From a virus: a stretch of DNA of 64,000 bases. Below are positions 8,212 to 64,000 of this stretch, one piece after another; position 1 is the stretch's first letter, and each line of letters opens with the position of its first letter. A model generated the notes under the pieces. That model saw only the letters and a program-made list of their open reading frames with translations, was not told the origin of the DNA and ran no database searches. The translations under genes and the position numbers were made by a program. The stretch lies in IMG/VR virus record IMGVR_UViG_3300021962_000060, positions 1 through 64,000 of that record; one strand, given 5' to 3'.

Positions 8212-8432
8212 TGTGTTGCCTTTCTTTGGGATTTGATTGGAATTTGTGTGAATAGCCTTGTCCACGAATTCCATCATAGCATAGTGAAATTGTGAATAAA
8301 AATTCTGGGTATTTGTAGGTCATTGCAGATGCAATAAGTCGAGCTTTAGGTCGAGCTTTGTGCCGGCCTTGTTTGTAACGTTAGAGCTCATAGGCAAAGG
8401 CTAACGTTAGAGAAAATCTAACGTTAAGCAGG

Positions 8433-8473
8433 CGGGTGCTCTAACGTTAGATTTTCTAACGTTAGAGCACCCG
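8433..8473. repeat. Last spacer hairpin of the array
   Basis: CGGGTGCTCTAACGTTAGA-TTT-TCTAACGTTAGAGCACCCG. Confidence 0.95.
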
Positions 8474-9072
8474 TTCTAACGTTAGAGCTTTAAATAAAAA
8501 ATTTAATGCAAATCCTAATCCTTATTCTTACAATAACTTTACGGGGAACTTTTCAATTGATCTTTTCAATCAATTATGCTCAACCGCTCATAAAGCCAGG
8601 GGAATGCTCGACCTTACCCCTGTATCTATCCCTACTGATAGGGACACCTATAACCGCCGGCTAACCCGATCATATTTCTGACCGGAATTCCTGAACAATA
8701 CCGATTATTGCCGGCTACAAAGAACCAAATTTCATTGATGTAATCAACCAGAATATTTCTTCTGATAGTCTGATTTGATAATCAAGATTATTACTACATA
8801 GATTTTTTCTAATATGATCCAACCTTTATACGGAGCTCATTTTGAGTCCGATCAAACACTTTTCTATATAGGCTGCTCTAACCAAAACACTAACCGGCCG
8901 GCTAAGGAGATACCTTCCCAGTGTCAATATTACTAGAGAGAACTATAACACACCCCAGGTATATTTTTCGCTAGAAAACACACAAAAACCAAAACAAACA
9001 AACAAAAAAACCTGAGAACACCCATCAATTTAACAAAAATTGAACATTATTGAGCGTAAAACACAAGCCTGT

Positions 9073-9137
9073 AAAGGACGTATTGCCTTTAGATAGACGT
9101 ATTGCCTTATCAAGGAAGTATTGTCTTGTAAAGGATC
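9073..9137. repeat. Three short direct repeats GTATTG(C/T)CTT
   Basis: GACGTATTGCCTT twice plus GAAGTATTGTCTT, about 19-20 bp period. Confidence 0.7.
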
Positions 9138-9200
9138 TATTTGATCTTAAAGGGTCTATCGGTTCTTATAGATGTTCTCAGGTTATTGATCTATGGTTCT

Positions 9201-9398
9201 TTAGTCTTCTATTTCTTCTATGTCTGTGAGACTATATATTTCTTTCCATTTAGCCCCGCAATTTTGACATTCAACAACCTGAGGAATCTGATCATATTCA
9301 GCATAAACAATATGGATAGCCATAATGTCCTCTGAACCACAATACAAACAGTTATACGGATGCTTAACATACCGTCTTTTCGTAAAATCATCAATCAT
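9201..9398 (-). CDS. Small Zn-ribbon protein
   Basis: CLYC...CQNC. Confidence 0.75.
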   Translation of the reverse strand: MIDDFTKRRYVKHPYNCLYCGSEDIMAIHIVYAEYDQIPQVVECQNCGAKWKEIYSLTDIEEIED

Positions 9399-9781
9399 TT
9401 CTTACCCCCAAAAGTTCCAACAGTAGCCCAAAACTTGTAGTCATTTTTTATTTCGTCCCACTCGTCCTGATCAAAAAGAGGCAAAGAATCATAATTAACC
9501 TCATAATTCACAATCCTATACCATCCCATACCCTCGATAAAAGCCTGGAAAAAGTCCTGAAGATTAGGAACATAAGTGAAAACCTTATAGGCATCAAAAA
9601 GACTCAGTTCTTCCGAAACCTTAGTGATATCCTGAATATCAACCCCGATCCCAATAAAGGCCGGATAAAAAGACGCACCCTCACCGTTATCAGTAACGCA
9701 AAGATCACACCAAATAAAATCAAAATCCCCCTCAGGGAAAGTAACAGTAATAATATCCGGCATGTAAACAGTTTTACTCAT
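9395..9781 (-). CDS. Hypothetical protein
   Basis: Start re-called after GAGG; coupled to neighbours. Confidence 0.65.
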   Translation of the reverse strand: MSKTVYMPDIITVTFPEGDFDFIWCDLCVTDNGEGASFYPAFIGIGVDIQDITKVSEELSLFDAYKVFTYVPNLQDFFQAFIEGMGWYRIVNYEVNYDSLPLFDQDEWDEIKNDYKFWATVGTFGGKK

Positions 9782-10037
9782 CATCATCCTCTGACTCAGG
9801 GAAGTCTTCCCAATCAACATAAATTTCATGAGGCTTACAGTCAACCAAAGAAAAACCATAATGATCTTTGATAAAGACCTCGGCATTTGTAATAATATAA
9901 TCCTCAGCCGTAGCGTAGTCTACAATCTCCTCTAACTCAAGATAAGACCTATGACTGACAGTCATATAGTCAAACACAAACGTGACATTAGCTGTATATT
10001 CATATACCCATTCAGGCTCAGTCATTTCTAAATCCAT
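9774..10037 (-). CDS. Acidic hypothetical protein
   Basis: ORF in packed minus-strand operon. Confidence 0.65.
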   Translation of the reverse strand: MDLEMTEPEWVYEYTANVTFVFDYMTVSHRSYLELEEIVDYATAEDYIITNAEVFIKDHYGFSLVDCKPHEIYVDWEDFPESEDDDE

Positions 10038-10158
10038 TCTTAATAATTACGGCCATTGCCATAAAAACTGATAAGTACAAAACAAAACTTATAAAATTCA
10101 TAGTCATTCCTCCCGATGAATAATTATACATTAATCATTATGATAATTATACAACAAG

Positions 10159-10202
10159 ATTGGGTGTATTTCCATCATTTCTATAGACAGAAATACACCC
10201 AA
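10159..10202. terminator. Inverted repeat, probable terminator
   Basis: TTGGGTGTATTTC...GAAATACACCCAA after the stop at 10209. Confidence 0.6.
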
Positions 10203-10208
10203 AACTTG

Positions 10209-10469
10209 TTATTGATCTAAAGGAAGCCCATACAAAAAGCCTGGCACTCCCAGATCATAAGCACTAAGAAGTTCACAAGTAAACAACTCACCATTTGCTG
10301 ATTCAATCTTAAAAATTGGGATTGCTATTGTAGGATCATCTTCGTAAATGCCTAGCATAACATCATTAATTTTTGCACCTTTGAGGTGTCGATAATAATT
10401 AGCTAAAAAACCGTGGTTCTTCCTAGCATCTTCTAACTCTTTAGGGGTTATATTGTATCTATATTCCAT
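10209..10469 (-). CDS. Hypothetical protein, tandem paralog of 10469-10726
   Basis: Shared YYxxLxG...P.FK...NGE...EL.S...PGFL(Y/F)GLP. Confidence 0.8.
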   Translation of the reverse strand: MEYRYNITPKELEDARKNHGFLANYYRHLKGAKINDVMLGIYEDDPTIAIPIFKIESANGELFTCELLSAYDLGVPGFLYGLPLDQ

Positions 10470-10726
10470 CAGTGTTTCACCGGCTCAACACTCGGCAAAC
10501 CAAACAGAAATCCAGGCTCATTACCCTCTTCATCAGAAGATAATTCAATCTGAATAACCTCCCCATTCATTAACTTAACTTTGAAGCAAGGCCAGTAGTC
10601 TTTTCCTCCCCAATCATCATCTTCTTCGACGATTCCAAATCCGACTATTACACTACCTACCAATTGACCGTAATAATCTTCCCAAAACTGCTTGTAACTA
10701 CGCTTCATTTCCTTATCTCTTTCCAT
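10469..10726 (-). CDS. Hypothetical protein, tandem paralog of 10209-10469
   Basis: SSDEEGNEPGFLFGLP motif. Confidence 0.8.
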   Translation of the reverse strand: MERDKEMKRSYKQFWEDYYGQLVGSVIVGFGIVEEDDDWGGKDYWPCFKVKLMNGEVIQIELSSDEEGNEPGFLFGLPSVEPVKH

Positions 10727-10732
10727 TTGTAT

Positions 10733-10981
10733 TTAAACATCAATTTTGTTGTAATGAGGATCAAAATAGATTATTTCGTCATCACGATTCAATTCATGCC
10801 CCCAAGGGCAACCGAAATCATCAGTAACCCAGCCCTGAATAAATTGTCTAATGTCTTCTTCCGAAGGATCCGTAATACCGACATCAAGGAGGCATGCTTT
10901 TATTTCGCTCATACTGTACGTAATTTCGCGTCTGACGATAATAAAATCAAGATCCCCCAATTCACCTGTCATTGATATCAT
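10733..10981 (-). CDS. Hypothetical protein
   Basis: Start re-called after GGAG. Confidence 0.6.
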   Translation of the reverse strand: MISMTGELGDLDFIIVRREITYSMSEIKACLLDVGITDPSEEDIRQFIQGWVTDDFGCPWGHELNRDDEIIYFDPHYNKIDV

Positions 10982-11138
10982 AAAACTCCACAGCGACGAT
11001 TTTGAAGTTGTCCAAGGCCATAAATTCCTCAATGGTGCCAAAAATCTCTTCACCAATGACTTCCGCTGACTCTTCAGGAGTTCCATCCATATCAGTAGCA
11101 GTAACCTCGATGGTATATTTAATACAATGTGTAGCCAT
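10962..11138 (-). CDS. Small acidic protein
   Basis: ORF in packed operon. Confidence 0.55.
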   Translation of the reverse strand: MATHCIKYTIEVTATDMDGTPEESAEVIGEEIFGTIEEFMALDNFKIVAVEFYDINDR

Positions 11139-11174
11139 AATACTCAATCTTTCTACTATTATTCCCAACTATAC

Positions 11175-11375
11175 TTATAGCCGTTCCGCAAGGCATTTCC
11201 TTGAGCAAGCTTGGATCTTGTCTTTTTCATAGACGATCCCCTTGCTAAGAATCCTATTACAACTAGGGCAAGTGAAACGCTTATCGCCAATCCCAAAATA
11301 AAGGACAGCATTGCCAACAAGCGTATTAGCAACTTTTTCATATGACGCAACTTTCGCCGGCTTCTTTCCTACCAT
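11175..11375 (-). CDS. Small Cys-rich protein
   Basis: CPSC...CSRKC; GAGG SD. Confidence 0.65.
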   Translation of the reverse strand: MVGKKPAKVASYEKVANTLVGNAVLYFGIGDKRFTCPSCNRILSKGIVYEKDKIQACSRKCLAERL

Positions 11376-11482
11376 TTAACTTTCCTCATCTTCCTCTGGG
11401 ATATATTCACAATCATGACCATAAGAGTATTCCTCGGCAGAATACCATCTGTCACATTCTTCACAATAAAACTGTAGTGCCA

Positions 11483-12067
11483 TTATTCCCCCCAAAATTG
11501 CTTAAATTCAAAATACAATCTTGATTTTACAAAATCCATAATTACATTTCTCATATTGACAATCCCAATATCATGATTGGCAACCATACTTATATAACCA
11601 CTGAAATTCACATTATGATCTTTGTCAAAGAAAATAAAACCTCTTAAGTAATCCAAAGCTTTTTGCCAATGTTTAACTGGTAAAGTATCGTGAATATACT
11701 GACAGCAAAGTAGCATAATGGTTGTATTCTTGTTAATGTGCCAATCAGGATGTGAATCACTTAAAGAATTGTGGACATTTACTTCGTCGGCTGAATTATC
11801 TTCCAAACTAGAATCATAAAACTTATCCTTGATCAGAATACCGACAGCGCAGCTTTTGTTATTTGGAACAAATTCAAATTCCACAGCCTCTCCGGTTTCT
11901 GGATCCTGAATATATATTGTTTCTTCACCTCTATAAGCACAACTTCCAGTCGAGTATCCATCACTCATACTACGAGAATTTTGTGTCAAAAGATGTTTTT
12001 CAATAATATTAAAAGCTTGCAAATCGTTTGTAATTTGTACATCTACTAATTCACTAACTAATGTCAT
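11483..12067 (-). CDS. Phage hypothetical protein (CAYRG...CAVG motif)
   Basis: AAGGAG SD; Cys/His motif CAYR..CAVG..QYIHD. Confidence 0.8.
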   Translation of the reverse strand: MTLVSELVDVQITNDLQAFNIIEKHLLTQNSRSMSDGYSTGSCAYRGEETIYIQDPETGEAVEFEFVPNNKSCAVGILIKDKFYDSSLEDNSADEVNVHNSLSDSHPDWHINKNTTIMLLCCQYIHDTLPVKHWQKALDYLRGFIFFDKDHNVNFSGYISMVANHDIGIVNMRNVIMDFVKSRLYFEFKQFWGE

Positions 12068-12076
12068 TTTATCTCC

Positions 12077-12445
12077 TTATTTTTTCTTGATTAAAATATT
12101 TAAAATTTCAGCAGCATCAGATCTAAATGCTTCAAGCACCTGAATGGTATTAAACCTGTCTGCTGAATAAAATGGTCCAAGTTGCATTGACTTAAGCAAA
12201 GTCGCTTCGACTGTCAAATACTCAACCCATCCGCTTTGTCTAAGGACATAAAGTTTTCCATAACTCTGGAAATCATAGGAGTTAATTCTAATAAACACTT
12301 TGTAAGTGTTTCCAGGGCTGGGTTCGTATATTTGGATATAAATACCATCATTCTGGTTGTGATACCAATCTTCATAAACAACTCTATCAGACCAGCCATC
12401 ACGATCCCTGCGATTAACTGGTCCTCTATACTTATACTTTGTCAT
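12077..12445 (-). CDS. Hypothetical protein
   Basis: GAGG SD, coupled. Confidence 0.75.
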   Translation of the reverse strand: MTKYKYRGPVNRRDRDGWSDRVVYEDWYHNQNDGIYIQIYEPSPGNTYKVFIRINSYDFQSYGKLYVLRQSGWVEYLTVEATLLKSMQLGPFYSADRFNTIQVLEAFRSDAAEILNILIKKK

Positions 12446-12786
12446 AGCAACCCTCTTTCTTTAAACAAATCAACAATGGAATCACTAACATCTGTACTAT
12501 TGCCATCTCTATCTGTAGGACCAACCAAAACACAATTTCCTACAATCACATCATAAAACCCCATATAAGATGGATTCTGTTCAAAAAGAAAATTAGCAAT
12601 ATTAGTAGCTACATCATTAATATCAAAGCCAATTATTTTTCCTTCTTCATTAACAATAAATGAATGCCCGTCAGGAAAAGTAAGAGATTCAATCCAACCA
12701 TCAACAAATGTATTGAAGTCAACCAATTCCCATTTCTCGTCAATTAAATTGCACTGGCCATCAGTAGTGATTGTTATCATCCTCAT
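12442..12786 (-). CDS. DUF3846-like protein
   Basis: VDGWIE...VNEEGK...N.AT...D.IVGN.VLVG pattern. Confidence 0.7.
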   Translation of the reverse strand: MRMITITTDGQCNLIDEKWELVDFNTFVDGWIESLTFPDGHSFIVNEEGKIIGFDINDVATNIANFLFEQNPSYMGFYDVIVGNCVLVGPTDRDGNSTDVSDSIVDLFKERGLL

Positions 12787-12787
12787 A

Positions 12788-13276
12788 TTACTCATCCTCT
12801 TCTTCACTAAAATTGTTGTCAATAATTTTGTAAAAAGTCTCTTGTTGATTTTCATGTTCTTCAACAATTCTTTTCATAATATTAGTCATTTGTTCTCTAA
12901 TTTCTTTTAACCCCTCCAGTTCTTCTTCCGACAAAGTGCTTTCATCAAGTTCTTCAAAATTGTACTCAGCCTCAATGTATTCTTGACGCTCGCTATCAGA
13001 CATATTCCTCATATTTTCATATTCATGAATAGCAGCGCCATATCTATACACCATGTCTAGATCATCATTACTCAAACCAGTTTCTTGCTGAATTTTTTCT
13101 AAAGAAAGTTTTTTGATCATAATAATCTTTCTAATATCAACTTCATCATCATCCTCAATACTGCTCATGTAATCTTCACTCATTTGACATATGATTTCTT
13201 CTCTTCTATTGAATAGCCAAAGCATCATATATGGATGTACATTATTGATATTATAAAAGTCTTTTGCTGTATACAC
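12788..13276 (-). CDS. Acidic hypothetical protein
   Basis: AGGAGG SD before GTG at 13276. Confidence 0.75.
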   Translation of the reverse strand: MYTAKDFYNINNVHPYMMLWLFNRREEIICQMSEDYMSSIEDDDEVDIRKIIMIKKLSLEKIQQETGLSNDDLDMVYRYGAAIHEYENMRNMSDSERQEYIEAEYNFEELDESTLSEEELEGLKEIREQMTNIMKRIVEEHENQQETFYKIIDNNFSEEEDE

Positions 13277-13305
13277 ATTTCCTCCTGATTTGATATATAA
13301 AAAAA

Positions 13306-13425
13306 AGAATAGGCAAGAATCCTTTGCAAAGACCAATTGCTTTAATATCAACTACTGAACAACCGCGCACAGTAATCAATACAGGATTCTCTTAAGCCAA
13401 CCTAGGGGAAGCTTTAGCCTATTCT
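13306..13425 (-). ncRNA. Unknown structured RNA, copy 1 (about 120 nt)
   Basis: Closing stem AGAATAGGC/GCCTATTCT, inner stem AGAATCCT/AGGATTCT; paralog at 13814-13925; abuts tRNA-Arg 3' end. Confidence 0.7.
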
Positions 13426-13428
13426 TAG

Positions 13429-13501
13429 CACCTCAAGTAGGACTTGAACCTACAACCTACAGATTAGAAGTCTGTTGCTCTATCCATTAAGCTATTGAGG
13501 T
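13429..13501 (-). tRNA. tRNA-Arg(TCT)
   Basis: Acceptor ACCTCAA/TTGAGGT, anticodon loop CTTCTAA, GGTTCAAGTCC T-arm; no encoded CCA. Confidence 0.92.
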
Positions 13502-13510
13502 ATTTAATTA

Positions 13511-13735
13511 CTAAAAACTATATTCTTGAAGATCAATAATTGTCCCAACTCTACTGCTAACACAACTATCACAAATATAAATACGACTAAAAGTCATATC
13601 ATATTCAGAACCATAGTTACCCACAAAATCGAGGCTGGTTCCTTTGTAGATGTTATCATCACTTTTGAAAAGACACTCCAACTCTTTGAAGCACACAAAG
13701 CAAAGTACATTTCCATTATTTGTTTTATTTTCCAT
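13511..13735 (-). CDS. Small Zn-binding protein between tRNAs
   Basis: CFVC...GNYGSEYD...ICDSC. Confidence 0.7.
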   Translation of the reverse strand: MENKTNNGNVLCFVCFKELECLFKSDDNIYKGTSLDFVGNYGSEYDMTFSRIYICDSCVSSRVGTIIDLQEYSF

Positions 13736-13737
13736 AG

Positions 13738-13809
13738 TATCTCAGGTAGGATTTGAACCTACAACCAATAGATTAAAAGTCTACTGCTCTACCATTGAGC
13801 TACTGAGAT
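13738..13809 (-). tRNA. tRNA-Lys(TTT)
   Basis: Acceptor ATCTCAG/CTGAGAT, loop CTTTTAA, GGTTCAAATCC. Confidence 0.92.
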
Positions 13810-13813
13810 AAAT

Positions 13814-13925
13814 TAGAATAGGCAGAGAACCTTTGTTGCAATGGCAAACTTTGATATCTTGCCGAAGCAAAGATACAGGTTCTCCTTAATGTTTCAGAAA
13901 GGGGTAAAACACTTAGCCTATTCTA
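13814..13925 (-). ncRNA. Unknown structured RNA, copy 2 (about 112 nt)
   Basis: TAGAATAGGC/GCCTATTCTA closing stem, GAGAACCT/AGGTTCTC, TTCG-capped hairpin; 4 nt upstream of tRNA-Lys. Confidence 0.7.
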
Positions 13926-13937
13926 AACCTTTTGTGG

Positions 13938-14504
13938 TTAGCAGGCCAAAGACCAAGGCTTCCAACCACACAAACCTTTTTCTTCTCTTGAAGAGTAAAG
14001 TTTGTAAGCAAACTCCAAGTTTATTCTAGGATCAAACATATCGTCTGGATGACTATAACCCATTTGGCTCAGCCATTCAGAGTGAATTTGGTTAATCTGA
14101 GTCAAGCCGGCATCGTGACCATTCCAAGCGTCAGTTGTGCAACGACTTTCTTTCCATATAATCTGAGAAACATTAGGCCATTCTTCTTCTGTAAACCCAA
14201 CATCAATAGCTAGGTCATGCCATTCACCACACTTGCCATACTTTTCTCTGAGTTGCTCAACAGTTAAAGTTTCTTCTGCTTCAATCGCAACATTCACAGA
14301 ATCAATATCAACAGGTGGAATCGTTATGACAGGCATAGTTGTTGTAGTTGTTGTAGTGGTTTCCACCTCTGTAGAAGAAACTACATAATATCCACTATCA
14401 CCTTCAATAGGATTATTTTTCAAATCATCATTTGATGCTAATACTGATATGCCAGTCAATCCTAAACTGATACCAATAATTGTAATTATAATAATACGTT
14501 TCAT
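13938..14504 (-). CDS. Secreted or membrane-anchored lysozyme-like (SLT) transglycosylase
   Basis: N-terminal signal/TM, Thr-rich linker, IIWKESRC (catalytic E), GLTQIN, DPRINLEFA, GWKPWS. Confidence 0.8.
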   Translation of the reverse strand: MKRIIIITIIGISLGLTGISVLASNDDLKNNPIEGDSGYYVVSSTEVETTTTTTTTMPVITIPPVDIDSVNVAIEAEETLTVEQLREKYGKCGEWHDLAIDVGFTEEEWPNVSQIIWKESRCTTDAWNGHDAGLTQINQIHSEWLSQMGYSHPDDMFDPRINLEFAYKLYSSREEKGLCGWKPWSLAC

Positions 14505-14672
14505 ATTTGCTCCTTAAGTAGTGTGTCTAAACGAAAACCGTTTCGGCATCGCTAAATCAGTAGCAAAACGAAATTGTCTACAAACCAAAATCGCTTTACT
14601 AGTAAGTTATATCAATAAGCATCACCTCCATATAAGTACATCTCTCTATTATACCATTTATACAAGCACTAG

Positions 14673-14744
14673 TACCCCTGCGTGGAATCGAACCACGTTT
14701 ATCATTTTATAAGAATGACATCCTAACCAGTAGATGACAGGGGC
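14673..14744 (-). tRNA. tRNA-Ile(TAT)
   Basis: Acceptor GCCCCTG/CAGGGGT, anticodon arm TCATT-CTTATAA-AATGA, GGTTCGATTCC. Confidence 0.85.
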
Positions 14745-14755
14745 ATTTACTTGAA

Positions 14756-14968
14756 TTATTTGTTATTTATCCAAACGTATGCCTGGTTGACCAAAGAACC
14801 GTAAAGATACTTATAGTCAATAAGCCAGCATCTCAAGTTAAATTCTTTTTGATCTCTCAAATAAAACATAAACGATCTATAAGAGATAATATCAACAGAT
14901 GAGGCGTTGGCTTCTATCAATTTGAGAATAATTCTATTATAGATTTTATCATTAATAATTGTTGACAT
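14756..14968 (-). CDS. Hypothetical protein
   Basis: GGAGG SD. Confidence 0.55.
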   Translation of the reverse strand: MSTIINDKIYNRIILKLIEANASSVDIISYRSFMFYLRDQKEFNLRCWLIDYKYLYGSLVNQAYVWINNK

Positions 14969-15458
14969 TGAAATCCTCCACCAAAACAACATTTTTAGGA
15001 CTCATTTCATCCATCGTAACTTTAATACGATGCCTAAGAATATGAACATTCTTATCATTAGGATTCATAATCATAGACCAATATCTATCTTCAAGTTCAA
15101 ACTCATCGACTTCGTGATAAATATCAAGACTGTACAAATAAGGACTCATCGCAACAAAAAAGATTTCGTGTTGACCCCATTTGTCATTGTAATGAAAATT
15201 ATGGCTAACAAGATCATCTTCAACAATCGTATCGTATTCAAAACCAAGAAGATGAAAGATATCCTCAACCCTCGTCATATCCTTGTCGTAATCAGGAGGG
15301 AACCAAGAAAACCATTTTTCACGATAACCATTCTTGCTAAGAGTCCCACCTCTCTTGTATTCATCATGCTTGTTCAATTCTTTCATAGCTTCAACCATAG
15401 CCATAGCGTTCTCTTTCTTGTATGCGATATGGCCGGATATGTTAATGTAAGTACCCAT
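14952..15458 (-). CDS. Hypothetical protein
   Basis: AAGGAG SD, 168 aa. Confidence 0.8.
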   Translation of the reverse strand: MGTYINISGHIAYKKENAMAMVEAMKELNKHDEYKRGGTLSKNGYREKWFSWFPPDYDKDMTRVEDIFHLLGFEYDTIVEDDLVSHNFHYNDKWGQHEIFFVAMSPYLYSLDIYHEVDEFELEDRYWSMIMNPNDKNVHILRHRIKVTMDEMSPKNVVLVEDFNVNNY

Positions 15459-15483
15459 AGTTTCTCTCCTTAGATTTTAAGTT

Positions 15484-15894
15484 TTATGCTAATCCATAAA
15501 GGTCTAGTTCTGATTCTTCAACAATAGTTACAACAGTTGAACTACCCATAGGGGCATCGTGATGAGATAGAGAATAATGAATTTCATTTTTCAGAATTTC
15601 CCCTCTCATTGTCCATTCACTATTAACAACCATGCCTCTAAGCAATTCAGAAGCATCATATGCCTGAATAAAACCGCTATGGTCTCCATTCCATAAACGG
15701 AAATTGTTAATCTTCCACCACCCTGTCTCGTTAAGCTCAAACAAGTCCAATGTGATGTTTTTAAAATTTTCAATCATATCATCATAGCAATATCCATAAC
15801 AGTCGTCTGAGCTATAATACTCATTATTAATTTCATCATAAACTTCACAAGTACAAGAATTGGTATAACTAAATTCTACTTTGGTATCATTCAT
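15484..15894 (-). CDS. Phage hypothetical protein (SHHDAPMG motif)
   Basis: AAGGAG SD. Confidence 0.8.
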   Translation of the reverse strand: MNDTKVEFSYTNSCTCEVYDEINNEYYSSDDCYGYCYDDMIENFKNITLDLFELNETGWWKINNFRLWNGDHSGFIQAYDASELLRGMVVNSEWTMRGEILKNEIHYSLSHHDAPMGSSTVVTIVEESELDLYGLA

Positions 15895-15925
15895 ATTTGT
15901 CTCCTTTGCTGATTAATGGTAATAG

Positions 15926-15998
15926 TGAGCGTGATGGGACTCGAACCCATACTGTAAAGATTTTAAGTCTTCTGCCTCTGCCATTGGGCTACACGCCC
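15926..15998 (-). tRNA. tRNA-Leu(TAA), short variable arm
   Basis: GGGCGTG/CACGCTC acceptor, TAGCCCAATGGCAGAGGC D-arm, loop CTTAAAA. Confidence 0.9.
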
Positions 15999-16003
15999 CG
16001 TAT

Positions 16004-16270
16004 CTATTTCTTATCTACAACTTTAGCTAGAAGATAAGCAAATACATCCATCTTTTGCTGGTCATCAAGATTATTGCCATAATACAACACAGCAGAATGA
16101 ATAACTTCAGAAATAAACTCGTCATCTCTCTTGTGTTTCTTCAAAAGATTAACTAAATGATCAACCCATTGAACTGTAAACAGCAATCCTGTTTCATCTG
16201 CGGAATCAGAATCATTTCTGATACGCTTAAACTTTTTTAAAATTGAATTAACTTTAGACATTAGATACAT
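16004..16270 (-). CDS. Hypothetical protein
   Basis: Packed ORF. Confidence 0.6.
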   Translation of the reverse strand: MYLMSKVNSILKKFKRIRNDSDSADETGLLFTVQWVDHLVNLLKKHKRDDEFISEVIHSAVLYYGNNLDDQQKMDVFAYLLAKVVDKK

Positions 16271-16535
16271 TCACCTCTTCTGATTCGTACTTCCTTTTGA
16301 TTACTTCATTAACAGCTTTACCAATTGAGAATGAAGCAAGACAGAAAGCAACATCTCCCAAAACAACATCAAGATACTTGTAAGTTCTATTATTATTGTA
16401 AGTGATATAAAGATCACCTATAATTTCCATATGAGACTTATAAATATTTTTATCACAGTCATCATGAGTTATGTAACTAATTTCAACAATATTGCTACTA
16501 ATAACATTTTCAAACTTCATCTTAGCTCTCATCAT
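16254..16535 (-). CDS. KTSC-domain-like protein
   Basis: VISSNIVEISY...LYITY...YKYLDV...ASFSIGKAVNEVIK. Confidence 0.7.
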   Translation of the reverse strand: MMRAKMKFENVISSNIVEISYITHDDCDKNIYKSHMEIIGDLYITYNNNRTYKYLDVVLGDVAFCLASFSIGKAVNEVIKRKYESEEVNVSNV

Positions 16536-16884: not shown

Positions 16885-17012
16885 TCATTGCCAATAAAGC
16901 GACTAATCCATAAGCACCTGCTACAACAAGAAATATTGGGAAAAATGCTATAGCGCAAATTATAACAACAAGAGTACACCAGAAATAAATAAACTTTTCC
17001 ATAAACATCCAA

Positions 17013-35384: not shown

Positions 35385-36137
35385 TCAACTCCATTGAAAA
35401 GCAATCGGTATACCGGATTCCGAGGATTCCTTTTCAAGTTTCTCTTTTTCATACCCATGAATTTTAGTAAACTCAACTCTATAGTTGAACCAGCCAATAA
35501 CGCCATTCCAAAACTTATCTTCTGTTGTATCGCGAAGTTTAATCAATTCCTCGTCTGTTAATAAAAAGCTTAAAACACCAAGAGGCATGTAAACTGTCAA
35601 ATCATAGTTAACATCTTTATCAGCAGAATACTTTTTTAGAAGCATCTGATAGTCTTCAACTATCCTTTTAACAGCAGGGCCGGCATAGTGATCAATTGCA
35701 TCATTTTCATTTCTTATTCTTGGACAAAAATCATCAACACTTGTTATGGTTCCAAAAGATCTACAAACAAGCGGTCTATAACCATATATACTGCATCCAC
35801 CTTTATAGAAGGCACAATGACGTTCAGTTTCTCCACCAGGCTTCCAGTCATCATCATGCATTGCATCAATTAAATCCTGAATGACACCGCCAATCCACTC
35901 ATTAGCAAAGTCTTCACCTTTGCTTTCCATGAGGCGATAGCATTCCTGCTTCAAACTAAAAGCAATATTCGCACATTCCATCATGGGAATGGTCAAACCA
36001 ATTTTACAACAATTACCAGAGCCAAGACACTTGTATTTTGTTTGATTTTGTTTGGCTTCTAAAACACGAACTTGATTGTAAATCATATCAAGATGTGCAA
36101 AAGTAGTAATATCTTTAATATCGACACTTCTTCTCAT
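35385..36137 (-). CDS. YkgJ-family Cys-cluster (Zn/Fe-S) protein
   Basis: CLGSGNCC...CAFY..GCSIYGYRPLVCR. Confidence 0.85.
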   Translation of the reverse strand: MRRSVDIKDITTFAHLDMIYNQVRVLEAKQNQTKYKCLGSGNCCKIGLTIPMMECANIAFSLKQECYRLMESKGEDFANEWIGGVIQDLIDAMHDDDWKPGGETERHCAFYKGGCSIYGYRPLVCRSFGTITSVDDFCPRIRNENDAIDHYAGPAVKRIVEDYQMLLKKYSADKDVNYDLTVYMPLGVLSFLLTDEELIKLRDTTEDKFWNGVIGWFNYRVEFTKIHGYEKEKLEKESSESGIPIAFQWS

Positions 36138-38403: not shown

Positions 38404-39849
38404 TTACAAATATTCTGTCATAACAGAAGCAATCCAAGAAACAACCGGAACAGCAACAGCATTTCCAATCATCTTGTATCGATTAGTGTTAGACACTTCT
38501 TTACCATCAGCACCATATCTAGTGTGATCATCATCAAAACCCATCAGACGCTCGCACTCAATAGGCGTAAGCCTTCTCAAGACCAAATCAGGTGTACAAA
38601 CACCATGCTGAGAAACGGTATCAAGAGTATAGGACGGGTCATTTGGCTCACCAAAACCCCTACCAGCAGGACCGGCAGAATCAGAACGCCCAATGATAGT
38701 ACCCTGAATCGGAATAGCAGTAGGATCGCCAATCATAGGAACATTATTACCACCAGTACCCATCCTAGCTTTCAAAGTTGGCATAATACCATCATCATAA
38801 ACACGAACATCATTGACTCTAGTACCATCCAAAATAAGAACAGTAGAACGAGATTCACTGTTATTATCAAAAGCATTCAAAGTGGGACTAACAGACTCAT
38901 TAGCCCAAACTTCAGGCGGTAAATTGCCTTCAGCATCACGGGCACCTGACCTAATCACCTTGACAAACGATTCAACATTAGAATGCAAAACAAAGTTTTC
39001 ATCAGGACGCTTATGACTAGTAGCCCTAAACGTAGAACCACCTTCCTTGTAATTACCAAAACCAGTCTTCCCATACAAGACAGGCTGGGCCACAGCGTTA
39101 CCAGTACTCTCACGCCTCATCGGTGGAAAAGCATCAAAAGAAGGTTGACAATCAATACCATTCTTGTGGTTAAAACCTATTGCTTCTCCGCCAACAAGTC
39201 CAGCGCTTTCTTCAGAGCCGGCGGAAGAGCGTTGCCTCTTCTTTCTGACCTTCTTAAGATTCCCACTGCTGTCTTCGGGGACAGGTAGTATTTGGTTTCC
39301 ACTTCTTCCAACGATTGCAGGATCGAAACAAGCAATGAGGAAGACTCTACGCCTTCTGTGTGGGATTCCAAACCATTGTGCATCCAACACGTGCCATTCA
39401 ATTGCCAATGCCCCGATGTTTGCCATTTCGTCAAGGACTGCTGCGAAGTCGTTTCCTTTATTACTTGTGAGGGCACCTGGGACGTTTTCCCAAATAGCGA
39501 CTCTTGGATATGTATTTCCTGTTGCATTTCTCATCTCCTTAATAATTCTGGTTGCTTCAAAAAACATAGACGATCTCTCGCCATCTAAACCGGCACGCTT
39601 ACCAGCAACAGACAAGTCCTGACAAGGCGAACCAAAACTAACAACATCAACAGGCTTAATATCAGCACCATTGACACCACAAACATCCAAATACTTATCA
39701 GTATCTGGCCAATGATAACTCAACACATTCTGGCAATGCTTATCCCATTCAATTTGCCAAGAACACTCCCAGCCGGCAGACTCAAAACCACGATCAAAAC
39801 CGCCGATACCAGCAAACATACTACCAAAAGTAATCTTATTCATAATCAC
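38404..39849 (-). CDS. DNA (cytosine-5)-methyltransferase with long multi-TRD variable region
   Basis: FAGIGG (I), GSPCQ (IV), ENV (VI), HRRRR (VIII), RRLTPIECERLMGF (IX), GNAV (X). Confidence 0.95.
   Translation of the reverse strand: MIMNKITFGSMFAGIGGFDRGFESAGWECSWQIEWDKHCQNVLSYHWPDTDKYLDVCGVNGADIKPVDVVSFGSPCQDLSVAGKRAGLDGERSSMFFEATRIIKEMRNATGNTYPRVAIWENVPGALTSNKGNDFAAVLDEMANIGALAIEWHVLDAQWFGIPHRRRRVFLIACFDPAIVGRSGNQILPVPEDSSGNLKKVRKKRQRSSAGSEESAGLVGGEAIGFNHKNGIDCQPSFDAFPPMRRESTGNAVAQPVLYGKTGFGNYKEGGSTFRATSHKRPDENFVLHSNVESFVKVIRSGARDAEGNLPPEVWANESVSPTLNAFDNNSESRSTVLILDGTRVNDVRVYDDGIMPTLKARMGTGGNNVPMIGDPTAIPIQGTIIGRSDSAGPAGRGFGEPNDPSYTLDTVSQHGVCTPDLVLRRLTPIECERLMGFDDDHTRYGADGKEVSNTNRYKMIGNAVAVPVVSWIASVMTEYL
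39177..39527 (-). CDS. Nested alternative-frame ORF resembling the M.EcoHK31I beta polypeptide
   Basis: Own AAGGAG SD; W.TSG....G.CWM.N.LE ... YLSP....IL.R..RRG..LP..L pattern. Confidence 0.7.
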   Translation of the reverse strand: MQQEIHIQESLFGKTSQVPSQVIKETTSQQSLTKWQTSGHWQLNGTCWMHNGLESHTEGVESSSLLVSILQSLEEVETKYYLSPKTAVGILRRSERRGNALPPALKKALDLLAEKQ

Positions 39850-40539: not shown

Positions 40540-40613
40540 ATATCCTCCAATCGGTTTTGCACAGTGTACCACACCAGCAACCAAAATTTCCCAATTGCAG
40601 ATTTATCACAAAA

Positions 40614-47767: not shown

Positions 47768-47775
47768 AATGAATA

Positions 47776-47806
47776 GTGCCGGCAGGCGTAAGATCCTGCC
47801 GGCACC
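47776..47806 (-). terminator. GC-rich hairpin after SSB gene
   Basis: GTGCCGGCAGG-N8-CCTGCCGGCAC. Confidence 0.7.
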
Positions 47807-47815
47807 ACTCCTTTC

Positions 47816-51065: not shown

Positions 51066-51291
51066 TTACATCCTCAACTTTTTTCCATTTTGACATTAAA
51101 CGATCAAACTCTGTTGTGCCGGCTACAACTCCAATAACTTCTTCTAATTCAGAATTATATAATATACATTCGTTAACGACAGTACATTTTTTGCACCCAT
51201 TAACAGCATACTCAATTTTTTCTAAATTATAAGAAACCCAATGGGAGTGATGATTGTCATTGGCACAAATAGCTTGATTTCGCCAATTCAC
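51046..51291 (-). CDS. Divergent WhiB-like protein
   Basis: WRNQAIC...CKKCTVVNEC...GVVAG. Confidence 0.75.
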   Translation of the reverse strand: MNWRNQAICANDNHHSHWVSYNLEKIEYAVNGCKKCTVVNECILYNSELEEVIGVVAGTTEFDRLMSKWKKVEDVNDNNWE

Positions 51292-54643: not shown

Positions 54644-54669
54644 ATATCTCCATTATACTACAAAAATGA

Positions 54670-60879: not shown

Positions 60880-61395
60880 TTATACCTCTTGAAAACTTAT
60901 AGAACAATTCCAATAGTATTCATCATTGTTCAAATCCCTTCTAACAAGTTCTTCAGAATAATTTGTCACTAAAACAGTATAGCTTGTTTCTGTATAAGAA
61001 GTAAGACCATTGGCATCTAGATTTCTAATTTTTAAAGTATGAGATCTGGGATCTAGTGCTATTTTTTTAACATAATCCCGACCGGCCTTTAGGTCAACGG
61101 TGTTTTGCTGTTTTCCAGGCAGAAATGACCAATCAATATTTATAATTCTTTTATTATTTGCAATATTAAAATAAACACCTTTTCGACCATTAGCTCTTTC
61201 ATTTGTTACATAGTTAATATTATTAGAAAAAGATGTTTTTCTATTGTGCTCTGAAAGCGGGATGGAATCAACAGAAAACATCGGTTTAATATCCGATGTA
61301 TCCTCCAGAAAAGCAGATTTTAAAACATCTACGGAACTAACAAGAAAAGATGAAGATCCGCCAGTAGAAAAAGAAGTAATGGATACAGTAGCCAT
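60880..61395 (-). CDS. Tail protein (distal-tail position), paralog of 61395-61793
   Basis: EHNR...W.FLP....TVD...GRD shared. Confidence 0.7.
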   Translation of the reverse strand: MATVSITSFSTGGSSSFLVSSVDVLKSAFLEDTSDIKPMFSVDSIPLSEHNRKTSFSNNINYVTNERANGRKGVYFNIANNKRIINIDWSFLPGKQQNTVDLKAGRDYVKKIALDPRSHTLKIRNLDANGLTSYTETSYTVLVTNYSEELVRRDLNNDEYYWNCSISFQEV

Positions 61396-61793
61396 CAGAT
61401 TTCCTCTAGCACCATGTCTACATCAAAATACCTGCATTGACTTTGTATAACATTTTTTAACATAGTTTCATTATATGAGGATAAAAGACAGGTATAGTTG
61501 TTCCATTCATCTTTTCTATCATTTTGTATAGATAATGTAACAAGTGAGCCGGCTGTAACAAGTGAATACAAAAAGTCCCTACCAACTCTGGTATCAACAG
61601 TTTTTGCGGCTTTATCTGGTAGATATTTCCAAGAAAAAGAAAAAGAGTTTTTAGCCGGCTTATAAAATCTTTTCATAGAACCAGATGCAATACTGATATC
61701 AGTATTTTGATATATTGGTGAATCTGAAAATGCTCTATTATGCTCTGTGATTTCAGTATTATTAATTTTTATTAAAGCATTCAAAGTCATCAC
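61395..61793 (-). CDS. Tail protein (distal-tail position)
   Basis: Directly after tape measure; EHNR..WKYLP..TVD..GRD. Confidence 0.7.
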   Translation of the reverse strand: MMTLNALIKINNTEITEHNRAFSDSPIYQNTDISIASGSMKRFYKPAKNSFSFSWKYLPDKAAKTVDTRVGRDFLYSLVTAGSLVTLSIQNDRKDEWNNYTCLLSSYNETMLKNVIQSQCRYFDVDMVLEEI

Positions 61794-64000
61794 ATACCCC
61801 TAGATAGACCAGAGTAAGTTGTTACAACCCTATTCTCCATACCAGCAGACTTTTGTTTAGCCGGCAAAACATTCATATTGTATTGCTTAAGCATAGAATT
61901 AAACCACTCATCTTCACCAATAAAGTTTTCAACATAAATATTAGTTGTAGTAGTTGAGGAAGAAGTACTAGCATATTCAGGTGTTCTAGTCTGAGGCGTA
62001 GCAAATCTCATCTTATTAAGATTTTCTAATGCAGCATAGCCAATGTTTTTGACAGCATTTGAATTAATAACATACTCACCACCATGCAACATGGCCGGAA
62101 TACCCTGCGAACCAAACCCAGGAACAACATAACCACCAGCCCCAAATTTCGGAACACGACCACCATATCTTAGTGAATAGTGAATCTGGAAAAGACCAGC
62201 AACGCCGTTATCGCCAGCATCTTTTAATTTTTGAAGCTCCAATCCAGCTTTTGCATGTTTTTGTTGAGCAGTTCTACCCATCTGACTCATATCAAATTGA
62301 AAAATATAATTAGCTGCTTTTTTAATTAAAGCTTCTTTTTCTTGAGCGTTAAGTCTCCTCAATGTTTCAGAATTTTTATTCTTTTCAAAATTTGCCCTAG
62401 TTTGTCTTAATATAGCATTATAAGTTTCTGATGACGGCGCACCCCTAGTGGGCGTTGTGCTAGGTTCGTTATCACCAGCACCATCATCACCAGCAGCATC
62501 TTCTGCTTGATTCGCCAAATAATTAGCAACAGAAAGCCTAGCAAGCATCACATCAATTCTAGTAGCAAGACCATCAACCATACTACCAACAGCACCAACT
62601 GTTCCTGTAATTTCTCTAATCAAAGTTGTATTAGCAATTCTTATAGCCTCTTCAAACACAGTGAAAGGATTGTTTTCTTCTAAAATAGCAGCAATAGACT
62701 GCATCGCCGGTAAGAATATTGACTCTCCAATAGTTGAAAAACCAGCCGCTAAATCAAAAACATTATCAACAATTCCAGCAAAAGCAGCACTAATAGACTC
62801 TTGACTACCAACCATTTGACCTTCAATACCAGTCAACATCGCAACAGTTGCGCCAACAACTGAATTTTGATCAGATGCATCAGTTAAACCATATTTAGCC
62901 TGTGCAGTAGTAATCAATTGATCCAAAGAAGTTGCAAAAACACCAACAGCCTCATTGGGAAGAGCAATATTTTCAGTCATGCTGTTAAGCATTTCTTCAA
63001 ATATTTGAGAATTTTCTTGAGCAACCCCAGAAGCAGCCGTGTTCAACTGATCCAGCATTGATCTATATTCTTCAATTGTTTGCGGCGGGAATTGTGTTAT
63101 CTTTTTAGCAGCATCCTCAAAGCCCTTTATTTGCTCATCAAAAAACTTTCCCGCCTCATCTTTAGCAGCACTAATTGCATCTTTAAGAGCTTGCAAGTTC
63201 TCTTCAGCAAGATCTTTTCTTCTGCTCTCGTCAAGTTTGGCAAGATCCTTTGTGTAATCAAGACTGTTCTTCTGATCTTCAAGAGCCAAGACTCTTGCGT
63301 CATCAATACGGCCTTCATAAATAGCAAGAGCTCGTTCTCTCTGGTAGTTTTGCATTTGCAAGGCGCGTTCATCAATCATCCGCCTACGTTCAACTTGATA
63401 CTCTTTTTCTTTAGTTAGTGATTCTTCTGCTTTAGCAAGCTTATCTAATGTTTCAATCTGGGTATCATAAACAGCCAAAGCAGCATCTTTTTGACTCTGA
63501 AGGGCATCGTTTAAGCCTTCAACAACATCCTGAACTTTCTTAGAAACCTCATCAAGAACTAAGTCAACAAATCTTTGTTTTAAATCATTCAAGAACTTTG
63601 CAAGCTCACCGTCGGCTTCGTTATACACCTTATCCAAGCCAGCAGCAATCGGATCTGTAAAAGCATCAGCATATTCTTTACCATAATCATTTGCGTCCTC
63701 AACAATATTCTTTCCAGTACTATCCATTAAAGACTTAGTGCTTTCAATAATCTTATCAAGCATGCCTTGACCCCATTGACCAAGTTTTTCAATTGCTTTG
63801 ACACCAAAACCAAATCCAATGTCAATGGCTTTATTTACAACTTTGCCTAAACCATCAACACCATCAGCAGCAAGCTTCACAGCACCGGAGACACTCTTGC
63901 CGAAAACCTCAACGGTCTTTTTTAAACCATCAGCAATATTGTCTATACCCAGTAGTTTTCCAAGTCTTGATCGTCCAATAGAACCTACAGTTTTATCAAT
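61790..64000 (-). CDS. Tape measure protein, C-terminal part (open to window edge)
   Basis: Long helical Ala/Gln/Lys-rich ORF, PAMLHGGEYVINSNAV motif, frame open to 64000. Confidence 0.85.
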   Translation of the reverse strand: MDKTVGSIGRSRLGKLLGIDNIADGLKKTVEVFGKSVSGAVKLAADGVDGLGKVVNKAIDIGFGFGVKAIEKLGQWGQGMLDKIIESTKSLMDSTGKNIVEDANDYGKEYADAFTDPIAAGLDKVYNEADGELAKFLNDLKQRFVDLVLDEVSKKVQDVVEGLNDALQSQKDAALAVYDTQIETLDKLAKAEESLTKEKEYQVERRRMIDERALQMQNYQRERALAIYEGRIDDARVLALEDQKNSLDYTKDLAKLDESRRKDLAEENLQALKDAISAAKDEAGKFFDEQIKGFEDAAKKITQFPPQTIEEYRSMLDQLNTAASGVAQENSQIFEEMLNSMTENIALPNEAVGVFATSLDQLITTAQAKYGLTDASDQNSVVGATVAMLTGIEGQMVGSQESISAAFAGIVDNVFDLAAGFSTIGESIFLPAMQSIAAILEENNPFTVFEEAIRIANTTLIREITGTVGAVGSMVDGLATRIDVMLARLSVANYLANQAEDAAGDDGAGDNEPSTTPTRGAPSSETYNAILRQTRANFEKNKNSETLRRLNAQEKEALIKKAANYIFQFDMSQMGRTAQQKHAKAGLELQKLKDAGDNGVAGLFQIHYSLRYGGRVPKFGAGGYVVPGFGSQGIPAMLHGGEYVINSNAVKNIGYAALENLNKMRFATPQTRTPEYASTSSSTTTTNIYVENFIGEDEWFNSMLKQYNMNVLPAKQKSAGMENRVVTTYSGLSRGM

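What the first reader, a model, noticed from the sequence alone, without database searches (positions are those of the whole stretch)
8300..64000. GCCGGC (and CCGGC) is strongly over-represented in the AT-rich genome
Seen: about 30 GCCGGC counted by eye (e.g. 11356, 14106, 16693, 20601, 26887, 29594, 31035, 32948, 36748, 39772, 46782, 51118, 55967, 60145, 61654), plus many ACCGGC on the + strand. A zero-order estimate at about 35% GC predicts 1-2. They occur in genes and in intergenic DNA, and GCCGG/CCGGC closes the array hairpins. Knowledge: phages usually deplete palindromic restriction sites; enrichment recalls cyanobacterial HIP1, which is linked to methyltransferases. Inference: a selected genome-wide mark (self-recognition, modification target of the phage C5 methyltransferase or glycosyltransferases, or a Chi-like or packaging signal).
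Basis: partly seen in the sequence, partly recalled or inferred. Interest (0 to 1): 0.7.

Follow-up and report, generated by a model that had tools for sequence, protein, structure and literature searches.

The report
Iterated GCCGGC palindrome in a phage
An uncultured 91-kb phage, probably of actinobacteria, removes almost every other six-letter palindrome but carries GCCGGC about 12-20 times too often, while most sampled relatives lack the word, so a process of unknown kind acts on the DNA word itself.

Summary
Observation confirmed. GCCGGC occurs 38 times in the window, 32 of them in 8300-64000, and 47 times in the 90.9-kb record. About 1.5-3 are expected.

- **Statistics.** It is the most over-represented of all 4096 hexamers. 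A synonymous-codon shuffle gives 35 observed against 7.3±2.4 (z 11.8). Ala-Gly is written GCC-GGC 19 times against 2.0 expected. The excess also appears in frame 2 and between genes.
- **The word.** It is the bare hexamer, with no flank signal and random spacing. None of the other seven all-G/C palindromic hexamers is in excess.
- **Relatives.** Four lineages of one clade share the excess (O/E 5-23). A nested sister group has none and no DCCGGH at all. Thirteen outgroup loci have 1 site against 15 expected.
- **Evolution.** Sites are kept far better than other synonymous codon pairs (16/21 against 24%). They are gained in several steps, some of which change the protein.
- **Mechanism.** My best reading is a restriction-type site, shielded by the phage's multi-module C5 methylase, that a directional force then pushes upward. 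This resembles the 'alternate HIPs' of cyanobacteria. The force itself is not identified.
- **Not supported.** VSP repair, TET and glycosyl hypermodification, Chi or pac signals, and codon bias.

Unchecked notes of this scan report similar GCCGGC excesses in other phages.

The parts
8362..61865 (.). 32 copies of GCCGGC in the 36% G+C part of the window. They start at 8362, 8656, 8710, 8897, 11356, 14106, 16693, 20601, 26887, 28560, 29106, 29326, 29594, 31035, 31443, 32948, 35679, 36808, 39217, 39772, 46782, 47778, 47798, 51118, 54326, 55967, 56789, 56793, 60145, 61548, 61654 and 61860.
92..5266 (.). Six GCCGGC (92, 1278, 1341, 2588, 5249, 5261) in the 50% G+C cassette array, together with 12 ACCGGC and 12 GCCGGT that close the array hairpins.
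38404..39849 (-). C5 cytosine DNA methyltransferase, 481 aa. Its long variable region is built of about five TL-type target-recognition modules. It is the candidate shield for the site. Module D reads PTLKARMGTGG in all strongly enriched genomes.
47771..47808 (.). Intergenic hairpin whose two arms each hold GCCGGC. The stem is kept by paired changes in relatives: GCCGGT/ACCGGC in G005 and GCTGGC/GCCAGC in G002.
35679..35684 (-). Site made by three substitutions, one of which changes the protein: GGT-GGT (Gly-Gly) in nine other genomes, GCC-GGC (Ala-Gly) here.
4430..4470 (.). Example of an array hairpin closed by GCCGGT...ACCGGC.
   Evidence: I10

Best explanation
GCCGGC here is a restriction/modification-type recognition word of NaeI/NgoMIV specificity, a subset of RCCGGY.

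Shown:
- The unit is the exact six-base palindrome.
- The wider phage family avoids it, as it would a restriction target.
- NaeI-type enzymes exist in the probable host class and deplete the word in the genomes that carry them.
- In one clade the sign flips to a 5-23-fold excess.
- Sites in that clade are conserved far above synonymous background.
- New sites arise by changes at all six positions, including transversions and amino-acid replacements.

Inferred:
- In this clade the site is shielded from restriction by the phage's multi-module C5 methylase. Module D, with the clade-specific TLKAR variant, is the candidate.
- Once the site is shielded, a directional force acting on the whole hexamer raises its number. 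I think this is most likely selection on the density of methylated sites, used as a mark on phage DNA or a methyl-directed repair signal. A biased-fixation ratchet of the kind proposed for the alternate HIPs of cyanobacteria is the other form of this idea.
- Placement does not matter; number does.
For: - Exact hexamer with no flank information. It is the only one of the eight all-G/C palindromic hexamers in excess.
- Top hexamer after synonymous shuffling in G000, G001, G003 and G005, with z 11.8, 9.5, 6.9 and 17.9.
- Family-wide avoidance: 1 against 15.4 expected in 284 kb of outgroup loci.
- The nested sister group has 0 sites, and all DCCGGH are absent (0 of about 97 expected).
- Ten other six-base palindromes are absent from G000.
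- NaeI, methylase and Vsr cassettes occur in Actinomycetes genomes that are 4-15x depleted in the word.
- Two WhiB genes point to an actinobacterial host.
- Conservation at conserved Ala-Gly: 16/21 against 216/900 for other four-fold codon pairs.
- Private multi-step and nonsynonymous gains.
- The structural module, which is closest to the site-free relative G002, has the lower site density.
- The residue pair after TL in module D changes KH to KA to MS, in step with avoid, excess, avoid.
- The one-off pattern GCCGGC >> GCCGGT/ACCGGC > ACCGGT matches that described for Oscillatoria PCC 10802 (PMC4390886).
Against: - The methylase's specificity is not known. Comparison with NaeI-linked methylases gave only the generic PTL...GG pattern.
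- The TRD correlation rests on two changes on one tree.
- G003 keeps only two modules and is still enriched, though more weakly.
- G411 (80% complete) and G409 have no C5 or N4/N6 methylase, yet show a 4-6x excess of GCCGGC and a stronger excess of TGCCGG/CCGGCA.
- No benefit of extra sites is known.
- Spacing is random, which also fits a neutral drive.
- Polarity of changes was inferred partly from relatives that themselves purge CCGG.
Confidence: 0.4

Rival explanations
1. Neutral biased repair. A methyl-linked mismatch process creates and protects sites without any benefit to the phage. It could be host VSP repair (Vsr) or the G-5mC-directed mismatch repair that Elhai proposed.
For: - Random spacing and no positional preference.
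- The commonest change is T to C at the third base of Ala codons.
- GCYGGC precursors are depleted in the most enriched phage (O/E 0.94 against 2.5-3.5).
- The three-of-four RCCGGY pattern is what the model predicts (PMC4390886).
- Vsr sits inside NaeI cassettes of Actinomycetes.
Against: - No Vsr in the phage.
- GTCGGC/GCCGAC is not depleted (O/E about 1.0).
- Gains use all six positions, transversions and amino-acid changes.
- Genomes that have the methylase, Vsr and NaeI are depleted, not enriched.
- None of 401 Actinomycetes genomes exceeds a 2.7-fold ratio.
- From established knowledge: actinobacteria lack MutS and MutL.
Confidence: 0.2
2. A binding site that does not depend on methylation. 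A dimeric phage (or host) DNA-binding protein uses GCCGGC, for example for genome organisation, regulation or recombination. The word can accumulate only where restriction allows.
For: - Exact palindrome.
- High conservation.
- The word or its RCCGGY relatives sit next to the CTAACGTTAG boxes and close the hairpins of the cassette array.
- A weaker excess exists in methylase-less relatives.
Against: - Most sites lie inside genes at random places.
- The word is wholly dispensable in most relatives.
- No candidate protein is present in all enriched genomes and absent from the others in the shared region.
Confidence: 0.2
3. Imitation of a host signal, such as a Chi-like protector against host exonuclease or another host-abundant word.
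For: - Known Chi words are G+C-rich.
- The phage has its own recombination genes, as many Chi-using phages do.
Against: - A palindrome has no orientation.
- None of the 401 sampled Actinomycetes genomes is strongly enriched; the small 1.3-1.5 Mb genomes have ratios of 1.3-2.3.
- Relatives avoid the word like a restriction site.
Confidence: 0.07
4. By-product of translation or of avoiding other words: codon-pair bias, or recoding of Ala-Gly to escape GCAGG or GCTGG.
For: - Most sites are Ala-Gly.
- GCA-GGN is depleted in all these genomes.
Against: - The excess survives synonymous shuffling.
- It is present in frame 2 and between genes.
- It is absent in relatives with the same proteins and the same GCA-GGN depletion.
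- GCT-GGN is not depleted in G000.
Confidence: 0.03

Closest known systems
Alternate highly iterated palindromes of cyanobacteria: rCCGGy (GCCGGC, GCCGGT, ACCGGC) in Oscillatoria PCC 10802 and GGCGCC in Calothrix PCC 7103 (Elhai 2015, PMC4390886)
   Same: - The same word.
- The same three-of-four RCCGGY pattern.
- An m5C methylase gene in the same genome.
- Relatives with a similar methylase under-represent the word.
- Sites occur in genes and between them.
   Different: - A virus, not a cell, with a probable actinobacterial host.
- The palindromic form dominates here, whereas it made up about 32% of instances in Oscillatoria.
- The methylase is a multi-module phage type of unknown target.
- The sign flips within one narrow clade.
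- A weaker excess occurs without any methylase.
HIP1 (GCGATCGC) of cyanobacteria (Xu, Lawrence and Durand 2018, PMC5861425)
   Same: - A hyper-abundant palindrome, 15-300x there and 5-23x here.
- Conserved between genomes beyond background.
- No evident peptide or RNA role.
   Different: - Six bases, not eight.
- No periodicity detectable here.
- The genome is too short to test the 10-90 kb periods.
Restriction-site avoidance in phages, and NaeI/NgoMIV (GCCGGC) restriction-modification systems with a linked Vsr
   Same: - The word is a classical type II site.
- Relatives avoid it.
- NaeI, Vsr and methylase cassettes were found in Actinomycetes genomes that deplete the word.
   Different: Here the direction is reversed: excess, not avoidance.
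Multispecific C5 methylases of Bacillus phages (SPR, phi3T, rho11s; from memory)
   Same: Tandem TL-type target-recognition modules lie between motifs VIII and IX, and modules are gained and lost among relatives.

Membership tests
Highly iterated palindromes (HIP1 and alternate HIPs) | Short palindrome over-represented at least 10-fold genome-wide, beyond codon and dipeptide usage | tested here: met
   O/E 11.8 in G000 and 22.7 in G005+L003. Shuffle z 11.8 and 17.9.
Highly iterated palindromes (HIP1 and alternate HIPs) | Present in several reading frames and in non-coding DNA | tested here: met
   19 in frame 0, 6 in frame 2, 1 in frame 1, 6 intergenic.
Highly iterated palindromes (HIP1 and alternate HIPs) | Methylase specific for the word encoded in the same genome | tested here: inconclusive
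   A C5 methylase is present but its target is unknown. Comparison with NaeI-linked methylases was uninformative. The TRD variant correlates with the excess. Methylase-less relatives are weakly enriched.
Highly iterated palindromes (HIP1 and alternate HIPs) | Sites conserved between related genomes above background | tested here: met
   16/21 against 216/900 at synonymous level. This does not hold with G003 (0/10).
Highly iterated palindromes (HIP1 and alternate HIPs) | One-off variants biased to the outer positions (GCCGGT/ACCGGC up, ACCGGT not) | tested here: met
   G000 2.6x, G005+L003 5.6-6.1x, G001 2.1x, with ACCGGT at about 1x or below. Not met in G003.
Highly iterated palindromes (HIP1 and alternate HIPs) | Periodic or regular distribution | tested here: not met
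   The CV of the gaps equals that of random placement. The genome is too short for 10-90 kb periods.
VSP (Vsr) repair-driven excess | Vsr endonuclease available, and T-containing deamination neighbours depleted | tested here: not met
   No Vsr in the phage. GTCGGC/GCCGAC O/E is about 1.0. GCYGGC is lowered only in G005. Hosts with methylase plus Vsr are depleted in the word.
TET/JBP-glycosyl hypermodification of 5mC | TET/JBP dioxygenase together with a methylase and glycosyltransferases | tested here: not met
   No PF12851 match. The only 2OG oxygenase is PF13640 and lies in the tail module.
Phage-borne GCCGGC restriction enzyme | NaeI, NgoMIV or Cfr10I/Bse634I family gene in the phage | tested here: not met
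   No match in G000. The record is 87% complete.
Chi-like signal | Oriented word that is enriched in the host genome | tested here: not met
   The word is a palindrome, so it has no orientation. The highest ratio among 401 Actinomycetes genomes is 2.7. The true host is unknown.

The most novel reading that the evidence does not exclude
A phage lineage has turned a restriction site that its relatives purge into a positively selected, densely repeated mark on its own DNA, and phages do this repeatedly. This would be a viral counterpart of the cyanobacterial HIPs. Because sister phages with and without the excess exist, the unknown function or drive behind HIPs could be tested directly.
Probability: 0.35. 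Interest if true: 0.8.

Novelty: new variant of a known kind. Interest (0 to 1): 0.66.

Why it matters
Phages are known for avoiding palindromic restriction sites. A reproducible 5-23-fold excess of one such site, next to total loss of the same site in sister phages, is the opposite behaviour and has no accepted mechanism.

The same unexplained phenomenon in cyanobacteria (HIP1 and the alternate HIPs) has been open for decades. Here it occurs in a small genome with natural 'on' and 'off' relatives. It comes with a candidate methylase whose variable modules differ at a few residues.

That makes two long-standing questions testable by standard cloning, methylome and recoding experiments: whether methylation is involved, and whether selection or biased repair is the cause. 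It also matters for host prediction and for k-mer-based virus classification, because a single word can shift strongly between near relatives.

Tried and rejected
1. Codon, dipeptide and junction bias: rejected.
2. Part of a longer repeat: rejected, no flank information.
3. A general excess of G+C-rich palindromes, a lead from earlier notes: not the case here, only 1 of the 8 is in excess.
4. Phage Vsr, TET/JBP, N4/N6 methylase, or NaeI, NgoMIV or Cfr10I enzymes: none found.
5. A gene present in all enriched genomes and absent from non-enriched ones within the shared 32-63 kb: none found. The early region is not covered by the site-free contigs.
6. A replacement motif in the site-free sister phage G002: none.
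7. Inferring the methylase target by aligning it with NaeI-linked methylases: uninformative.
8. Host identification through WhiB in genome contigs: only distant hits, to Nocardioides, Streptomyces and a Saccharimonas MAG.
9. A HIP-like host among 401 Actinomycetes genomes: none.
10. Regular spacing or position within genes: none.
11. Megablast of 20 kb against isolated phages: no match. The polymerase is at most 39% identical to those of Streptomyces phages.
12. Rfam on 1-16500: only the four tRNAs pass threshold.
Full report
**What the window is.** The window is the first 64 kb of a 90,921-base IMG/VR virus record, linear and estimated 87% complete. Bases 1-8300 have about 50% G+C. They hold an array of small cassettes separated by CTAACGTTAG boxes, terminator hairpins and long hairpins. 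From about 8900 onward the DNA has 36% G+C, and almost every gene lies on the minus strand.

Genes include:
- a DnaE-type polymerase, a DnaB-like helicase, RecA/UvsX-like, RuvC-like, Cas4-like and SbcD-like nucleases, and a T4 endoV-like glycosylase;
- three GT4 glycosyltransferases and a class II ribonucleotide reductase;
- portal, capsid and tail genes, and four tRNAs;
- one C5 cytosine methylase at 38404-39849.

Two WhiB genes (21174-21494 and 51046-51291) point to an actinobacterial host. Gene calls in my scripts are simple longest-ORF calls on the minus strand. They cover 94-95% of the AT-rich part.

GCCGGC occurs 38 times in the window, 32 times in 8300-64000 and 47 times in the record. 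Markov expectations for 8300-64000 are 1.6, 1.5, 3.1 and 8.7 for orders 0-3. At each of these orders it is the most over-represented of all 4096 hexamers.

I shuffled synonymous codons within each gene, which keeps every protein and each gene's codon counts. This gives 7.3 ± 2.35 against 35 observed (z 11.8). The highest shuffle reached 13, and the next-best hexamer has z 5.9.

Of the 32 sites, 19 are GCC-GGC (Ala-Gly), 6 are in frame 2 (CCG-GCN, Pro-Ala), 1 is in frame 1 and 6 are intergenic. Given 84 Ala-Gly dipeptides and the genome's codon usage, 2.0 GCC-GGC are expected and 19 are seen. CCG-GCC is seen 5 times against 0.4. Other codons in front of GGC are mostly T-ending (ATT, AAT, GAT, TAT, GTT), so there is no general liking for a C|G junction.

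**What kind of word it is.**
- Across 109 sites from four genomes, read in both orientations, no flanking position carries more than 0.04 bit. The unit is the bare six-base palindrome, as for a type II restriction or methylase site.
- Of the eight palindromic hexamers made only of G and C, GCCGGC alone is in excess. Five of the other seven are absent, and GGGCCC (2) and CGGCCG (6) stay near the 3.1 expected.
- The same genome has no TTCGAA, CCATGG, TCCGGA, CGATCG, GACGTC, GGTACC, GTCGAC, GTGCAC, ACGCGT or CGTACG, although 9-27 of each are expected. The phage is under strong restriction pressure, which makes the excess of one site stand out.
- Spacing is indistinguishable from random placement, and there is no preferred position within genes.

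**Relatives.** A scan with the polymerase gave 80 related viral loci.

*Enriched lineages.* On the polymerase tree the strong excess lies in one well-supported 11-member clade:

| Lineage | Sites | O/E | Shuffle z |
|---|---|---|---|
| G000 (this record) | 37 in 82 kb (AT-rich part, beyond 8900) | 11.8 | 11.8 |
| G005 + L003 (one phage) | 24 in 27 kb | about 23 | 17.9 |
| G001 | 33 in 63 kb | 12.3 | 9.5 |
| G003 | 18 in 75 kb | 4.6 | 6.9 |

 In G005, 14 of 26 Ala-Gly dipeptides are written GCC-GGC.

*Site-free sister group.* Nested in the same clade is a group (G002, G004, L005, L007, L011, L102, L103) with no GCCGGC at all in more than 130 kb. Among its CCGG sites only those in the CCCGG/CCGGG context remain. 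All DCCGGH forms are absent, 0 of about 97 expected. It has no substitute motif in excess.

*Outgroups.* Thirteen outgroup loci that tolerate CCGG in general (284 kb) hold 1 GCCGGC against 15.4 expected. Several further clades have no CCGG at all.

So the family treats the word as a restriction target, and one clade reverses the sign. Two more distant lineages show a weaker excess: G411 with 15 sites in 84 kb, and G409 with 8 in 50 kb. Their strongest hexamers are TGCCGG/CCGGCA.

**How sites arise and persist.**
- In codon alignments of the shared genes, most sites sit on conserved Ala-Gly. The site-free phages write these as GCT-GGN.
- Among G000, G001 and G005, a GCC-GGC at a conserved Ala-Gly is identical in the partner in 16 of 21 cases. 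The figure is 216 of 900 (24%) for other pairs of four-fold codons and 7 of 41 for other Ala-Gly pairs. These pairs are not independent. With G003, 0 of 10 are shared.
- Each lineage also has private sites.
- Relative to the majority state of the non-enriched genomes, sites differ at 2.1-2.3 of six positions, against 1.55-1.72 for control hexamers. The changes fall on all six positions and include transversions.
- Gly-Gly (GGT-GGT), conserved in nine other genomes, became GCC-GGC in G000 at 35679. The same replacement happened independently in another gene of G005. L100, which is 88% identical to G000 in DNA, turned GTAGAA into GCCGGC.
- An intergenic hairpin at 47771-47808 keeps its stem through paired changes: GCCGGC/GCCGGC here, GCCGGT/ACCGGC in G005 and GCTGGC/GCCAGC in G002.
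- G000's structural module is closest to the site-free G002 and has the lower density, 9 sites beyond 63 kb. This fits ongoing accumulation.
- Caveat: polarity was partly judged against relatives that themselves remove CCGG.

**The methylase.** The 481-aa enzyme has the catalytic motifs of C5 methylases and a long variable region made of about five TL-type modules. These modules come and go among relatives.
- Enriched and site-free phages carry versions 76-82% identical with the same architecture, so presence alone explains nothing.
- G003 keeps only modules C and D and is still enriched.
- In module D the two residues after the TL motif are KA in all five strongly enriched genomes, MS in the site-free sister group, and KH (QH in one) in the outgroup loci that carry the module.
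- This matches the sequence avoid, excess, avoid on the tree. It amounts to only two changes, so it is a lead and not proof.
- NaeI-linked methylases fetched from three Actinomycetes genomes share only the generic PTL...GG pattern with it.
- G411 and G409 have no detectable C5 or N4/N6 methylase. A weak form of the excess therefore does not need a phage methylase.

**Host side.**
- In a sample of 401 Actinomycetes genomes, the ratio of GCCGGC to its reverse CGGCCG never exceeds 2.7. Genomes of 1.3-1.5 Mb have ratios of 1.3-2.3.
- Some large genomes are strongly depleted: G036 at 0.07, G369 at 0.17 and G356 at 0.28.
- These three carry a NaeI-family enzyme, two of them also an NgoMIV-type gene, with a C5 methylase and a Vsr gene in the same locus.
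- GCCGGC restriction is therefore real in this bacterial class. A methylase plus Vsr goes with depletion there, not excess.
- The sample includes ten unpublished genomes: G270, G380, G014, G043, G037, G050, G039, G031, G022 and G311. Only the survey-wide statement (no ratio above 2.7) rests partly on them. No genome that I name individually is among them.

**Explanations.**
- *Codon or translation effects* are excluded.
- *Classical VSP overshoot* is unlikely. The phage has no Vsr. The deamination neighbour GTCGGC/GCCGAC is not depleted, and GCYGGC is lowered only in G005. Gains are not limited to one position. Genomes with methylase plus Vsr are depleted.
- *Hypermodification* is not supported: there is no TET/JBP, and the 2OG oxygenase is a PF13640 protein in the tail module.
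- *A phage-borne GCCGGC nuclease* was not found.
- *A Chi-like or packaging signal* does not fit a randomly placed palindrome that relatives avoid.
- *Closest precedent.* Elhai described three of the four RCCGGY words (GCCGGC, GCCGGT, ACCGGC) in excess in Oscillatoria PCC 10802, together with an rCCGGy methylase. Most genomes with that methylase under-represent them (PMC4390886). G000, G005 and G001 show the same three-of-four pattern.
- *Bias or selection.* Elhai proposed a methyl-directed repair ratchet. Xu and co-workers argued from conservation for selection on HIP1 (PMC5861425). My data lean toward a force acting on the whole hexamer: conservation, multi-position and protein-changing gains, and lower density in the module closest to the site-free relative. 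They cannot separate selection on site density from a strong ratchet.
- *What I commit to.* A restriction-type site is shielded in this clade, most likely by the phage methylase, and its number is then pushed up by a methylation-linked directional force. Confidence about 0.4.

**Earlier notes of the scan.** Unchecked notes report GCCGGC excesses in several marine T4-like phages and in a 115-kb freshwater phage. Some of them also have relatives that lack the word, and one report says the excess does not depend on the phage methylase.

My results agree on two points: near relatives purge the word, and a weak excess exists without a methylase. They differ from the notes that describe a general excess of G+C-rich palindromes, because here only GCCGGC is affected.

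If the recurrence is real, it argues for a cause more general than this clade's enzyme. That is one reason my confidence in the methylase link is moderate.

Noticed in passing
window 1-8300: A 50% G+C array of small cassettes. Many CTAACGTTAG palindromic boxes recur at fixed offsets, with GC-rich terminator hairpins and long hairpins closed by GCCGGT...ACCGGC. G001 has a similar array at 58-63 kb, in which GCCGGC itself sits next to the boxes.
   Followed up: partly
window 38404-39849 and its homologues in L005-L117: The C5 methylase is built of tandem TL-type modules (A-E and others) that are gained, lost and moved among relatives. G003 keeps two modules and L075 has extra ones.
   Followed up: partly
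G002, G004, L005, L102 (sister phages): All CCGG sites of the form DCCGGH are gone (0 of about 97 expected), while CCCGG/CCGGG sites are at expectation. This suggests a CCGG-cutting host enzyme together with protection of CCSGG-type sites.
   Followed up: no
whole record G000: Ten six-base palindromes are completely absent, although 9-27 of each are expected: TTCGAA, CCATGG, TCCGGA, CGATCG, GACGTC, GGTACC, GTCGAC, GTGCAC, ACGCGT and CGTACG. The set differs between relatives; for example G003 has 14 TTCGAA and no AACGTT.
   Followed up: partly
G036:C4:174508-178389, G369:C2:2885-6275, G356:C1:343917-346137: Actinomycetes genomes that are 4-15x depleted in GCCGGC carry a methylase, a Vsr and a NaeI-family enzyme in one locus. 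Two of them also have an NgoMIV-type gene.
   Followed up: partly
window 21174-21494 and 51046-51291: Two WhiB-family genes, a marker of actinobacteria and their phages.
   Followed up: partly
all six compared genomes: The codon pair GCA-GGN, above all GCA-GGT, is 2-5x rarer than expected in enriched and non-enriched phages alike. The effect is separate from the GCCGGC excess.
   Followed up: no
G411 (83.6 kb) and G409 (50 kb), distant relatives: The most over-represented hexamers are CCGGCA and TGCCGG (25 against 6.3, and 20 against 5.3). No DNA methylase was detected in these records.
   Followed up: partly
G000 55-91 kb compared with 29-55 kb: Mosaic genome. The structural genes are 70-95% identical to G002 but only 30-50% identical to G001 and G003. 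The replication genes are about equally distant from all of them.
   Followed up: no
window 39836-40584: A highly conserved 99-aa protein (phrog_2002, annotated as 'resolvase') overlaps the start of the methylase gene. Just upstream lies a T4 endoV-like glycosylase. Both are also present in the site-free relative G002.
   Followed up: no
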